Shown: one piece after another, positions 3,862 to 39,519 of the stretch
Layout of the letters: every line of letters begins with the position of its first letter
Numbering within the stretch: the stretch's first letter is position 1
From: Eledone cirrhosa
Lineage: Eukaryota
Length of the DNA: 64,000 nucleotides
NCBI GenBank assembly: GCA_964016885.1
Contig: CAXHJY010001532.1
Coordinates: forward strand, 1-64,000
Direction of reading: 5' to 3'
The notes under the pieces: model-generated
Seen by the model: the letters and a program-made list of their open reading frames with translations, nothing else
What the model was told of the DNA's origin: nothing
Databases searched by the model: none
Position numbers and translations under genes: made by a program

Positions 3862-3899
3862 CCTTTACCGGTTTCGCAGTTCTTCTGCTTTTCAAAAGG
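3862..3899 (-). ncRNA. Minimal type I hammerhead, U3-A8 core variant
   Basis: Minus strand: cctt-TTGAAAA-gcag aagaa ctgc-GAAA-ccgg-TA-aagg; stem I cctt/aagg, stem II gcag/ctgc, palindromic stem III ACCGGT. Confidence 0.75.
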
Positions 3900-4347
3900 T
3901 GAGTTGAGATGGAGGGTCTGTGGTTTTTCTCACATCTGGTTGGTCTCTGAATGTTACTTGTTTTATATGGAAAAAGTGGCTCGAAATGCCAGGTTTTTCG
4001 AGAAGTAATTTGATTGGTTTGTCAATAATTATAATAAATTTCGCGCCAGTTCGCGTTACAATAGTTCTTCAAATAGAGCGGGGGTGGGGGGTGGGGGTTG
4101 TCACAGGTTGTTTTTTCATATATGAGTGTTTGAATTTCTTTTTACTTGAAAAAAGGAGGCTCACGAAGGCTTTTTTTTGGTTGGTTATAAATGAAATTTG
4201 GCTGTCACGTGAACAAGTTTTCATTACATTTTTGCGCCCTTATTTGGAAAACTATTCTGTAGTCTTTATAGTGAATGTTATGACAATGGAAAGTTAGTGG
4301 TCAAGAGAAAAGGGATTGAGAGAATTGTTCTGGTTCAGTGAATATGG

Positions 4348-4612
4348 TTAGTTCGCTGGGGTGTCAGAGTTCAGATTTTCTATGTATGTTTATTTGTGTG
4401 TATGTGTGTGTGTGTGTGTGTATGTGTGTATTGGAAGATGATTCTATTAGTAGAGATGGGGGAGGGAGTTGTGTGTTAGTTCGCTGGGGTGTCAGAGTTC
4501 AGATTTTCTATGTATGTTTATTTGTGTGTATGTGTGTGTGTGTGTGTGTGTGTGTGTGTATGTGTGTATTGGAAGATGATTCTATTAGTAGAGATGGGGG
4601 AGGGAGTTGTGT
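4348..4612. repeat. Tandem duplication, ~128-bp unit x2, containing (TG)n
   Basis: ttagttcgctggggt...ggaagatgattctattagtagagatggggg starts at about 4348 and 4476. Confidence 0.85.
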
Positions 4613-6703
4613 GTGTGTGTATATGGGTGTTATGTGTGTGTGTGCGAGTATGTTAAGATGGAGAGAATATATATTTTGTGTGTGTGTATATATATATGTG
4701 TGTAGGAAAGTGGTTCTATTAGTAGAAATGGGGAGGGAGTTGTAGGTGTGGGGGTTGTTATGTGTGTGTATGGATGTTATGTGTGTGGGAGTATGGTTAG
4801 CATGTTAAGATGAAGAGAATATATATATATATATATTGTGTGTGTGTGTGTATGTGGTTGTGTAGGAAAGTGATTCCTTTAGTAGGAATATTTTTGAATG
4901 AACATATTTTCCTTATTCGTGTTTGCTGTTGTATTGTCAGTGCAAACGTATGTTAAGGTTTATTTAGTTCGGGATTTTATTTTCTAAAGTAGAAGGTGTT
5001 ATGTGTGTGTGTGTATGTCATATTGTGGTGTTGACATAATGTATATTAAACCTTATTTAATGTTGGTCTATATTTTTGAATAAACATATTTTCCTTATTT
5101 ATTCGCATTTGTTCTGTTGTATTGTTAGCGCAAAGGTAAAATGGGAAGACTTGGAATTTGGGTGTCTTATTACTTGCGCAAATGTCTAGATGTGCACTTA
5201 GTGGTATCTGTCTCGTGGTTGGATCTCGTAATTGTTGGCGATGAACTGTCATTCTGTTTCTGAGTGTGAGTTTAGTTTGTCCTATATAATCTTCATTGCA
5301 TCCTTTACATTTAATGGCATAAATTAGATTTTTTGATGAGCAAGTGAAGTGATTTTTTACAGTAAAATTCTGTCCTGATTTAAATGTATACGTGTTGCCT
5401 TCAATGAGGTGAGTGCAGGTTCCACAATTAGAGCGACCACATATATAAAATTTAAAAATATATAAGAGCAATATAACTGTTAAATATTCAAATAATTTAA
5501 ATTACTGAAGAAAGAGGAAAGACAAGAAAGGCATAGAGAAAAAACAGATGAGGGGATAATATAGCTAGTAGGAGCATAGAAAACAAAGGAGAGTTGATTA
5601 CAGAGAGAGAGATAAAGAGGAATAACTTATATAGTGTAATATATAGGGAGATATTAATTGTATATTTCTATATAGAACAACATTTGGGCTTAGCTTTAGA
5701 AAAAACTCAATTCATTGAATTATTGAATTATCTAAAAGTATTTATCAATCGAGATTTTAAATATAATTGGGTGTATGCTTATGAAGGTTAATAACAAGTC
5801 TTTAGATAATTATCTATATATCAATATATATCCAAACGTATCTGGTTGACCGTTAACATACAAATCATTTAATTTAAGTTAGTTCAGAGTAATGAATAAT
5901 ATTTTAGGTTATAAAAGTTAATAAATATCAGTATTAATATTAAAGTATACTATCATATTTAATTTATAAAATCAAATTTTATGAAATCAAATTTAAAGGA
6001 TTTACAAACACGAGAAAGAAAACAATGTTTTTACATCCTCACGAAGGTAAACTTTACTAAATTTATTATATAATATTAAATTATTTATATTATATTGAAA
6101 ATAGTTTACATTATATAATTTAGAAAATAATTAGTTATAATTTTTAAAGAATTTTAAGATTAACAATTTGAATGCCTTAAGGATCAACAGGCCTTATAAT
6201 CAAACTTTAATAAAGTTTGATTATTAAATTATATATATGCGTTTATCAAAAAATACACAAAGATTATATTGTCTAAAGATTAAGATTATACCTCTCAATT
6301 AGACATAACATAATACAATACAATAAATAAGTTACTGATAATATTGTTAAAATTAATGTTTTAAATCAATTATTATAATAGGATCATTTAATAGATATAT
6401 ACTATAAATATACAAGTCAAAACTTCATGAATCCTAAGGATAACGACTAGATTCAAAATAAAAAGTGAAATAATGAATTGTTTGCGATCATAACAGTGCC
6501 CAATATAAAATAAAATAGTTTAAAAATGCAAGAGAGTTTTTTATTTTTAAGATTTTTAAGATTCCTTGTCGAGTGGTTTCAATCTATTGTAAAACTCATT
6601 CTTTGATTTATTCATTGAAACTTGTTTAACCTTTAAATATATATATATATATATATATATATATATATATATATATATATATATATATATATATATATAT
6701 ATA

Positions 6704-38230: not shown

Positions 38231-38275
38231 AACAGTTCTGATGAAGGGCGATGACCCAGAAACACGTTGATTGTT
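38231..38275 (+). ncRNA. Minimal hammerhead motif in a ~250-bp duplicated unit (37878-38130 / 38230-38475)
   Basis: aacagtt-CTGATGA-agggcgatgaccca-GAAA-cacg-TT-gattgtt. The upstream copy has stem II deleted but keeps the ACATGT palindrome. Confidence 0.6.
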
Positions 38276-38964
38276 TCTCGATGCCAGTGTTGAACAAACG
38301 GATGGCGATTGGCTATCAAGACACAGCATAGCTTTGTTGGGCCGTTTGCTTGCAAACGAATCGAATATTACCATTATTATTCGATATAACCGATACGTAC
38401 ATATGTATGTGTGTGTATGCATACTTACATTTATGTATCTGGTATGCTAGAGCGAGAAATAAAATTCTAATTATATATATATATGAAAAAAAATCGTTTT
38501 TTACAAAAACAATATAAAAACATTTGATACATAGGTGGAGAAGTTAAAACAACTCAAAATACAGTAATTTATTCGTAAATCAATATCTAATGTAAAAACG
38601 TATTTGGTAATTACTTATGTATGCCCACTCTCGATTTGCATACGGGTATTAGAAATAACTGATAATTAAAAAGGATTAAATCTAGTTATGGGTTTTATAT
38701 TGTTTTTTTCTCCTTTCCTTTTAAAAGGAAATTGAGTTCCGTTTGTTTTTACACGGAGTTTCCTCGTCTTTCAATCGTGAGGTAATTTATAAACGAGAAA
38801 CTGCGTGACACTAACTATGACGAATTACGTCCCTTTAAATTTAAATCTTGCTAGTGATCTCCCTTCGAATTATGGAATTTAATATTTATTCAAATACGTA
38901 GAAAAAGAAAGTAGCATTGCAAAATACTATTAATGCTATAAATGAGAGGAAAGGACAGGCATTA

Positions 38965-39110
38965 TTAGGCGTTACGGCCCTTTATGGTCTGAGTTCAAAT
39001 CCCGCCGAGGTTAACTTTGCCTTTCATCCTTACGGGGTCGATAAAATAAAGTACCAGTAATGTACTGGAATAATTGCTGGCCTTGTGCCAAAAGTAGAAA
39101 CAATTATTAG
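38965..39110 (+). mobile_element. SINE family 2 fragment
   Basis: ctgagttcaaatcccgccgaggttaactttgcctttcatccttacggggtcgataaaataaagtaccag..ccttgtgccaaaagtagaaacaattatt. Other copies at about 36995-37205, 44085-44230(-), 49624-49843, 51081-51267, 58574-58775(-), 59507-59692(-), 61750-61925(-). Confidence 0.8.
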
Positions 39111-39519
39111 GCATTGAAAGAAACAGTATCCTAGACGGGCGCTCTGGAAAACCTGGAACTCAAGGAACAATCAGCTTTTTTCAATAAACTTACATCGGAC
39201 GGGGGACTGCGATTCGCTTCTCCGCAACAACTATTTAAGAATATAATACGTAAAGCAACATTTTGAAATATTTGTTTAGAAAACAAACCTTTCTGTGTAA
39301 TATTTATCATTGTGAATGTATATATATATATATATATATATATATATATATATAGTATAAAGAAAACGAAAAATCAGTGATGCATCTGGACTCAATTTAT
39401 TGCGTGTTACAATTGTTTCGCCGGCAGGTAGCTCGAGGCATGGTCCCTGTATGGATCTGGCTGCAGGTTCCTTCAGACACGGGTAATTCGTTCCGAGCAA
39501 ATTATATATATATATATAT

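What the first reader, a model, noticed from the sequence alone, without database searches (positions are those of the whole stretch)
3862..39481. Each minimal-hammerhead family has its own palindromic stem III: a possible dimerisation barcode
Seen: stem III is a loopless palindrome that differs by family: ACCGGT (3862, 22684, 22797, 30308), ACAGCTGT (20366), ATATGTAT (20879, with G-U), ATATATAT (22427), ATGCGCAT (29600), ACTACGTAGT (30707), ACGATCGT (35170), ACATGT (37910 copy), ACAATTGT (39403). Known: hammerheads with unstable stem III can cleave as double hammerheads, with two copies pairing through stem III. Inference: the palindrome could restrict cleavage to RNAs carrying two same-family repeats (tandem terminal repeats, or trans pairing), giving self/non-self recognition among co-resident PLE families.
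Basis: partly seen in the sequence, partly recalled or inferred. Interest (0 to 1): 0.72.

Follow-up and report, generated by a model that had tools for sequence, protein, structure and literature searches.

The report
Paired hammerhead ribozymes, no palindrome barcode
The short palindromes are real parts of predicted self-cutting RNA motifs carried by Penelope-like jumping genes, and their paired sequence changes indicate that two RNA copies likely pair to cut, as already published; but unrelated families share the same palindrome, so it is not a family barcode on its own.

Summary
All listed palindromes are present, each as stem III of a type-I minimal hammerhead motif. In 1.2 Mb sampled across the genome with a palindrome-blind descriptor, 120 of 220 hits were self-complementary against 1 of 21 in reversed controls. 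The 20370 motif lies in the terminal repeat of a Hydra-type Penelope-like element. Among its 4,573 copies the two central, adjacent bases switch G-C, G-U, A-U between subfamilies, while mismatched centres total 15. Adjacent bases cannot pair within one strand, so this supports double-hammerhead pairing, which is already published for these elements. The barcode part fails as stated. 26 of 55 sampled lineages share their stem III with another cluster (ACAATTGT in 8). One family holds three alleles, and its G-U allele is predicted to pair fully with both others. A 17,897-copy family has a non-pairing centre. A double hammerhead also exchanges stem I, which separates 36 of 43 identical-palindrome pairs, so partner specificity is likely a by-product of divergence in stems I and III together. 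No cleavage or RNA data were obtained. The scan reached the same verdict earlier on another piece of this genome (e1-8664523).

The parts
3862..3899 (-). Minimal type-I hammerhead motif, family A (U3-A8 core, stem III ACCGGT at 3867-3872)
   Evidence: 12,806 genomic copies, ACCGGT in 86 of 100 listed (hand count)
5046..5501 (-). GIY-YIG endonuclease fragment with a Cys-rich linker, on the same strand 1.15 kb upstream of the family A hammerhead; likely the same element
   Evidence: Pfam PF01541 E 1.5e-07, translation; four other loci match both 3786-3899 and up to 5239-5442 in pieces (L024, L003, L005, L048)
17531..20455 (+). 5'-truncated copy of a Hydra-type Penelope-like element (RT thumb, CxCX5C linker, GIY-YIG, 3' repeat with hammerhead)
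   Evidence: 98.3% identical over 2,927 nt to full-length L212; translations
17283..17462 (-). Short inverted fragment of the same element's terminal repeat
   Evidence: 98.9% to L212:2371-2550, opposite strand
20366..20412 (+). Hammerhead motif, family B (core CCGAAGA, stem III ACAGCTGT at 20400-20407, predicted cut after 20408)
   Evidence: 4,573 copies with three subfamily alleles
20879..20945 (-). Hammerhead motif, stem III ATATGTAT (20888-20895)
   Evidence: related group with the same stem I has 10,207 copies, ATATGTAT 81 and ATATATAT 13 of 100 listed (hand count)
22427..22481 (-). Hammerhead motif, stem III ATATATAT (22433-22440)
   Evidence: (ATATATAT in 9 of 10 cluster members)
22608..22910 (.). 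Head-to-head inverted insertion of family A with hammerheads at 22684-22721(-) and 22797-22834(+); opposite strands, so they cannot pair on one transcript as a double hammerhead
   Evidence: self-BLAST 95.7% over 303 nt
29605..29665 (-). Hammerhead motif, stem III ATGCGCAT (29609-29616)
30308..30349 (+). Hammerhead motif of a second ACCGGT family (core TTGATAA 30314-30320, stem III 30338-30343, irregular stem I)
   Evidence: (ACCGGT in 29 of 29 matches)
30707..30794 (+). Hammerhead motif, stem III ACTACGTAGT (30779-30788)
   Evidence: (8 of 8 cluster members)
35168..35292 (+). Hammerhead motif with 88-nt stem II region, stem III ACGATCGT (35275-35282)
37890..37925 (+). Core-deleted hammerhead remnant keeping stem III ACATGT (37911-37916)
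38230..38276 (+). Hammerhead motif of the same old family; this copy reads ACACGT, family state ACATGT
   Evidence: (22 of 25 loci ACATGT)
39403..39481 (-). Hammerhead motif, stem III ACAATTGT (39409-39416); family-wide core with one extra base (CUGA-AA/AG-GA)
   Evidence: 743 copies, ACAATTGT in 82 of 100 listed (hand count); core
1297..1374 (+).
24826..24902 (+).
   Evidence: (hairpin -3.2 kcal/mol)

Best explanation
These are type-I minimal hammerhead motifs from many families of Penelope-like retroelements, and their loopless, self-complementary stem III likely forms only when two RNA copies pair as a double hammerhead, which would then cut. Shown: the motifs, the palindromes, the covariation of the central bases, and for family B a position in both terminal repeats of an RT-endonuclease element. 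Inferred: in a transcript that spans both repeats (or between two transcripts) each copy would give its CUGANGA-stem II-GAAA half to one catalytic core and its UH-stem I arm to the other, so cutting would need both stem III and stem I to cross-pair. The palindrome likely drifts under the constraint of staying self-complementary, through G-U intermediates that remain compatible with both neighbours. Family specificity of pairing would then be a by-product of divergence in stems I and III together, with co-transcription supplying most of the self preference, not a selected barcode.
For: Palindromy far above controls (120 of 220 against 1 of 21). With outer pairs fixed as a filter, the central adjacent bases pair in 30 of 33 clusters against 0.40 expected (binomial p 1.5e-9, clusters not all independent). 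Family B: ACAGCTGT 39, ACAATTGT 35, ACAGTTGT 23, other 3 of the first 100 of 4,573 copies (hand count), each allele with its own flanks, while AC, AG, CC and CG centres total 15 genome-wide. A second group switches ACAGAGATCTGT (42), ACAAGGCCTTGT (22), ACAGAGCTCTGT (9) of 100 listed, with changes on both sides of two pairs (hand count; 27 others). Predicted double hammerhead is 4.6-14.3 kcal/mol below two monomers for 6 of 6 window motifs modelled. L212: repeat-832-aa ORF-repeat, hammerheads 4.19 kb apart on one strand, with RWR, DKT and CxCX5C motifs as described for the Hydra clade. Sharing: 37 distinct stem III among 55 lineages, 26 share theirs with another cluster; of 43 identical-stem-III pairs, 36 lack a 4-bp cross stem I; 32 of 1,431 pairs are compatible in both, mostly relatives. 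Literature: PMC4209133 reports palindromic helix III in PLE hammerheads, no cleavage of a monomer and low cleavage of dimers.
Against: No cleavage or expression data for these motifs. Only 9 of 108 sampled copies have a same-strand, same-family partner inside their 10-kb stretch (52 solo, 47 opposite-strand only), so most genomic copies could pair only in trans. A 17,897-copy family has AGAACT (77) or AGGACT (20) of 100 listed, none with a Watson-Crick centre (hand count), and the predicted AGAACT duplex is unstable (+2.4 kcal/mol); ACATTTGT makes up 6 of 100 in family J. Several lineages have monomer-competent hairpins. An Anolis PLE hammerhead cut a single-repeat RNA only when the element's protein was added, and cutting was not needed for insertion in vitro (PMC11167929). 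A PLE link was tested for family B, suggested for family A, and not tested for the other eight families. Inverted pairs in family B are 19 of 19 allele-concordant (hand count), which a barcode would also predict. The lineage list was picked by eye, singletons partly by their self-complementarity.
Confidence: 0.8

Rival explanations
1. Selected barcode: each family's palindrome was diversified by selection so that only same-family RNAs pair and cleave.
For: Most lineage pairs are predicted incompatible (only 137 of 1,431 at stem III, 32 at both stems). The GC and AU alleles of family B cross-pair poorly (-2.2 against -11.1 and -6.4 kcal/mol). Related clusters can carry very different stem III (ACGAGACGTCCGT and ACAATTGT, 71% alike over 375 nt). 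Inverted pairs are allele-concordant, 19 of 19.
Against: Palindromes are clumped, not spread (41 identical pairs against 6.8 uniform; equal to the 41.5 of a position-preserving null). ACAATTGT in 8 lineages. The G-U allele pairs better with its sisters (-8.7, -6.4) than with itself (-3.4). Five clusters or alleles with ATATRTAT share stem I too and are predicted cross-compatible. No known benefit of avoiding cross-cleavage; not proposed in the papers read.
Confidence: 0.07
2. Protein-assisted monomer: the element's RT-endonuclease folds a single hammerhead with a 1-2 bp stem III, and any specificity comes from the protein.
For: PAc hammerhead cut only with protein (PMC11167929). The AGAACT/AGGACT family thrives without a pairing centre. 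Most copies lack a cis partner.
Against: Covariation of the two adjacent central bases cannot arise in a hairpin, which needs a loop of about three bases. Hairpin stem III is predicted destabilising in 6 of 6 modelled motifs. It may act together with dimerisation rather than instead of it.
Confidence: 0.08
3. DNA-level palindrome: the motif is a binding or cutting site for a dimeric DNA-binding protein, not an RNA helix.
For: 6-12-bp perfect palindromes resemble such sites (general knowledge).
Against: Fixed register between GAA and UH in every family. G-U-type alleles occur on the hammerhead strand (ACAGTTGT 23 of 100) while the reverse-complement form ACAACTGT has 13 copies genome-wide. Sequence varies freely while pairing is kept.
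Confidence: 0.02
4. Stem III is mainly an RNA dimerisation signal that loads two element RNAs on a dimeric RT-endonuclease for head-to-head insertion, with cleavage secondary.
For: 47 of 108 copies have an opposite-strand partner; PAc protein is predicted to be a dimer and cleavage is dispensable for insertion in vitro (PMC11167929).
Against: No mixed-allele inverted pair among 19 in family B although GC x GU and AU x GU should pair; one apparently mixed pair in another group proved to be one subfamily with scattered changes. Naiads form inverted insertions without canonical hammerheads (PMC8557442). Catalytic cores are conserved.
Confidence: 0.05

Closest known systems
Minimal and palindromic-helix-III hammerheads in pLTRs of metazoan Penelope-like elements (Cervera and De la Pena 2014, PMC4209133; parts 1-2 of 4 read: abstract, results, discussion, start of methods)
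   Same: Type I, short stem I, U3-A8 core variant, many consensus families per genome, mostly solo or opposite-strand copies, palindromic 15.2-16.2 and loop 3, proposed dimeric action.
   Different: Stem III here is often 6-12 nt rather than minimal or 2-4 nt; stem II reaches 50-120 nt; the central-pair covariation and the family-by-family sharing count are not in the parts read.
[quoted passage not shown]
   Same: Palindromic short stem III, tandem arrangement, cleavage as dimers.
   Different: Could not check whether it already reports covariation within the palindrome or heterodimer tests.
Hydra clade of C-terminal EN+ Penelope-like elements (Craig et al. 2021, PMC8557442; section 11 and passages read)
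   Same: Single ORF, RWK-like (RWR) and DKT motifs, CxCX5C linker, C-terminal GIY-YIG, hammerheads in pLTRs, inverted truncated copies.
   Different: Unit of 4.19 kb against generally under 3 kb; clade placement by motifs, no tree built.
Double hammerheads of avocado sunblotch viroid, newt and axolotl repeats; metazoan non-LTR retrozymes (PMC7229834, PMC7761336, PMC6466107: passages; bioRxiv 10.64898/2026.07.22.740005: part 1 of 5 and passages)
   Same: Weak helix III with palindromic loop, more cleavage in dimeric constructs; 310-320-bp tandem repeats with such motifs occur in this genome.
   Different: Those are canonical hammerheads in short tandem units; the window's motifs are dispersed element ends.

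Membership tests
Type-I hammerhead ribozyme | Core C3(U)UGANG(A)A ... GAAA ... UH with stems I and II | tested here: met
   Descriptor and manual parse; exceptions: 37910 core deleted, family J has one extra core base, the 30314 family has an irregular stem I
Type-I hammerhead ribozyme | Match to an Rfam hammerhead model | tested here: not met
   No hammerhead family among 113 matches at E up to 1; minimal variants depart from the curated models
Type-I hammerhead ribozyme | Self-cleavage at the UH site | not testable with these tools
   No assay possible
Double-hammerhead (dimer-dependent) ribozyme | Stem III self-complementary and unable to fold as a hairpin | tested here: met
   not universal (AGAACT/AGGACT family; hairpin types)
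Double-hammerhead (dimer-dependent) ribozyme | Covariation that requires intermolecular pairing | tested here: met
   Central adjacent bases G-C, G-U, A-U with 15 mismatched copies of 4,573; 30 of 33 clusters
Double-hammerhead (dimer-dependent) ribozyme | Dimer cleaves, monomer does not | not testable with these tools
   Needs in vitro assay
EN+ Penelope-like element (family B) | Single RT + C-terminal GIY-YIG ORF between direct repeats that hold a hammerhead | tested here: met
   L212, L214, L215; RT motifs and YVGST read from translation; Pfam gave only GIY-YIG at E 0.2 for the window fragment; 794 homologues, 2 of the 120 listed with PF01541
Hydra clade PLE (family B) | RWK-like, DKT, CxCX5C linker | tested here: met
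   RWR, DKT and CNCRANRTC in P0123 against PMC8557442 section 11
Hydra clade PLE (family B) | Phylogenetic placement with Hydra RTs | not tested
   No labelled reference set at hand
EN+ Penelope-like element (other window families) | Link to an RT/GIY-YIG ORF | tested here: inconclusive
   Family A: GIY-YIG fragment upstream, linked in pieces in four loci; the other eight not traced
Family-specific barcode | Stem III unique to each family | tested here: not met
   26 of 55 lineages share it; ACAATTGT in 8; two ACCGGT families in the window
Family-specific barcode | One palindrome per family, orthogonal to relatives | tested here: not met
   Three alleles in family B, G-U allele fully cross-pairs
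Family-specific barcode | Over-dispersion among co-resident families | tested here: not met
   41 identical pairs against 6.8 (uniform) and 41.5 (position-preserving); common descent not corrected for

The most novel reading that the evidence does not exclude
Stems I and III together form a composite RNA pairing code, like a retroviral dimer-initiation signal, which is selected so that each of dozens of co-resident Penelope-like families pairs, cuts and loads only its own RNA; only 32 of 1,431 lineage pairs are predicted compatible, and G-U alleles would be the bridges along which the code evolves.
Probability: 0.1. Interest if true: 0.7.

Novelty: new member of a known kind. Interest (0 to 1): 0.3.

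Why it matters
The in vivo role of hammerheads in Penelope-like elements is called unknown in the papers read (PMC7761336, PMC8557442). Covariation of two adjacent bases at the centre of stem III is comparative evidence that RNA-RNA dimerisation was selected in elements that actually spread, and family B supplies a natural allele series (G-C, G-U, A-U, with identical stems I and II) for a clean homo/hetero-dimer assay. The dimer model itself is published, and the barcode idea is not supported as stated, so the gain is confirmation and a good test set, not a new mechanism.

Tried and rejected
Rfam scan: no hammerhead model matched; the microRNA hits are AT-rich repeats and inverted arms below gathering scores. 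PDB sequence search with the 832-aa ORF: no match at E up to 1. Pfam did not detect its RT. Sequencing runs: no RNA holder listed; laying three contig sets showed only that the C-to-T change at the central pair also stands in contigs of X1 and X6, and cannot show cleavage. First clustering chained AT-rich families and was redone. Rows dropped: L136 and L065 (AT-rich satellites giving false descriptor hits), though they are still inside the 241 hits; cluster 4 (satellite false hit) and non-complementary singletons were left out of the 55 lineages; W30313 was left out (54 lineages, 1,431 pairs). Exact pattern for the 38238 copy found only itself; a DNA search was used instead. An apparently mixed-allele inverted pair (C1:24.55 Mb) was one subfamily with scattered changes; the same-strand GC/AU pair in L213 is two stubs without an ORF between them. 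A 4-bp cross stem I between window families A and F rests on a base private to the window copy and was not counted. Searches for a published barcode or heterodimer test found none, but Lunse et al. 2017 and Arkhipova et al. 2017 are not held, and no supplements were read; these may already hold covariation data.
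Full report
Observation. All twelve sites carry the stated sequence between GAA and the UH triplet of a type-I hammerhead motif. Three points need correcting. The ACCGGT at 30308 belongs to another family than the ACCGGT copies at 3862, 22684 and 22797: its stems I and II differ, and ACCGGT stands in 29 of 29 matches from its 25 loci. The 37910 copy has lost its core; its neighbour at 38238 reads ACACGT, while 22 of 25 loci of the family read ACATGT. The window also holds hammerheads that are not loopless palindromes: odd-length ACC-N3-GGT types, a 5-bp hairpin with a loop, and a 19-nt type. 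Rfam has no matching model.

Chance. The window lies in a 3.0-Gb genome. I took 120 stretches of 10 kb at round-number positions and scanned them with a descriptor that asks only for core, stems I and II, A15.1 and U16.1-H17. It gave 241 hits, against 29 in reversed sequence and 27, 34 and 36 in shuffles. Of 220 hits with stem III of 6 nt or more, 120 were fully self-complementary, against 1 of 21 reversed. The 241 include false hits from three satellites and 28 copies from two tandem arrays, so I repeated the test per cluster: where all outer pairs hold, the two central adjacent bases pair in 30 of 33 clusters, 0.40 being expected from composition.

What carries them. Window 17531-20455 is 98.3% identical to locus L212, which has two direct repeats, each with the hammerhead, 4.19 kb apart on one strand, around an 832-aa ORF. 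The ORF shows RT motifs, a C-terminal GIY-YIG-like YVGST and the RWR, DKT and CxCX5C motifs that PMC8557442 section 11 gives for the Hydra clade. Pfam did not detect the RT, PDB gave nothing, and 794 homologues were found, mostly unnamed. Family A lies downstream of a GIY-YIG fragment, and four other loci link the two in pieces. The other eight families were not traced to an ORF; their assignment to Penelope-like elements rests on architecture and PMC4209133.

Is palindromy kept by compensatory change? Pattern searches with N across stem III answer this without bias; only the first 100 matches are listed, and the counts below are by hand. Family B, 4,573 copies: ACAGCTGT 39, ACAATTGT 35, ACAGTTGT 23, other 3. 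Each allele has its own flanks, so these are subfamilies (L212 and L216 are 85.7% alike). Centres AC, AG, CC and CG total 15 genome-wide, 13 of them AC. The two central bases are neighbours and cannot pair in a hairpin, so the G-C, G-U, A-U series points to a duplex of two molecules, and the excess of G-U over A-C points to RNA on the hammerhead strand rather than a DNA site. A second group of 1,242 copies shows ACAGAGATCTGT 42, ACAAGGCCTTGT 22, ACAGAGCTCTGT 9 and 27 others: two pairs change on both sides, and the centre is G-C or G-A. A third, 10,207 copies, has ATATGTAT 81 and ATATATAT 13. Family A (12,806 copies) has ACCGGT in 86 and family J (743) ACAATTGT in 82, with 6 ACATTTGT. Against universality, a family of 17,897 copies has AGAACT 77, AGGACT 20 and no Watson-Crick centre.

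Mechanism. For six window motifs the double hammerhead is predicted 4.6-14.3 kcal/mol more stable than two monomers, and a hairpin stem III costs energy in all six (crude structures with only the first helix of stem II, so only differences count). In that geometry one core takes CUGANGA, stem II and GAAA from copy A and UH with the 3' arm of stem I from copy B (follows from the fold in PMC4209133 figure 1), so partners must match in stem I as well as stem III. A full-length transcript supplies two identical copies in cis. Only 9 of 108 sampled copies have a same-strand partner within their 10 kb; 52 are solo and 47 have only an opposite-strand partner, so most genomic copies are stubs that could cut only in trans. 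Cleavage itself is not shown. PMC11167929 found a PLE hammerhead that cuts only with the element's protein and is dispensable for insertion in vitro, so protein help is plausible alongside dimerisation.

Barcode test. Among 55 lineages picked from the clusters plus two window copies, there are 37 distinct stem III sequences; 26 lineages share theirs with another cluster, ACAATTGT in 8. Among 34 fully pairing 6- and 8-nt lineages, 41 pairs are identical, against 6.8 for uniform palindromes and 41.5 for a position-preserving null, so they are clumped, not spread; common descent is not corrected for, but conservation across diverged families is itself the opposite of a diversifying barcode. In family B the G-U allele pairs fully with both sisters and more strongly than with itself (-8.7 and -6.4 against -3.4 kcal/mol); GC with AU is weak (-2.2). 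For the barcode: 19 of 19 inverted pairs and 7 of 8 close same-strand pairs carry the same allele, but a single source template explains this as well.

Literature. PMC4209133 (parts 1-2 of 4 read) describes minimal hammerheads in PLE repeats, many families per genome, the U3-A8 core, palindromic helix III and dimer-only activity. PMC6765202 and PMC6466107 (passages) repeat this and cite Lunse et al., which is not held. Six searches found no paper on family-specific or heterodimer discrimination; the two most relevant unread papers and all supplements may hold such data. The scan's own index holds the same idea from another piece of this genome with the same verdict (e1-8664523); my reading was recorded before that look-up.

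Verdict. Real feature, known kind. Dimer model well supported by covariation; a palindrome barcode unique to each family is not supported; a composite stem I + III code under selection remains possible at about 0.1. Interest 0.3.

Noticed in passing
L031-L150 (1.2 Mb genome sample): About 200 descriptor hits above background in 1.2 Mb, some from satellites and arrays; five exact-flank patterns alone count 46,226 copies, so the genome likely holds on the order of 10^5 hammerhead motifs.
   Followed up: partly
L054:4045-9164 and L063:281-3381: Tandem 310-bp arrays with one ACGCGT hammerhead per unit, head-to-head in L054: retrozyme-like.
   Followed up: no
L305, L306: The ACAAGGCCTTGT hammerhead occurs as same-strand pairs about 320 bp apart next to an inverted copy: likely a small non-autonomous unit related to the ACAGAGATCTGT family.
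   Followed up: partly
window 39470-39476 (-), L290-L301: Family-wide core with one extra base (CUGA-AA-GA or CUGA-AG-GA) in 13 of 16 matches parsed.
   Followed up: partly
Where the centre of an even-length stem III does not pair, it is G-A or A-A in the two large cases, which in a duplex would give tandem purine-purine pairs.
   Followed up: no
window 35177-35271; clusters 10, 34, 45, 55, 57, 58: Stem II regions of 79-115 nt in several families.
   Followed up: no
window 6946-7773 (+), 11985-13109 (-), 26731-27903 (+): Reverse transcriptase fragments (PF00078), the first followed by a PHD finger: non-LTR retrotransposon remnants.
   Followed up: no
window 15115-16867, 39598-39715, 40657-41038: Further inverted repeats; the first two carry 19-nt stem III hammerhead remnants with an inner TGAGCTCA palindrome.
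   Followed up: partly
cluster 7 (L128, L149): Stem III ACAG-TT-CTAG-TC-CTGT: can fold as a hairpin or as a duplex with a central CTAG palindrome, a possible monomer/dimer intermediate.
   Followed up: no
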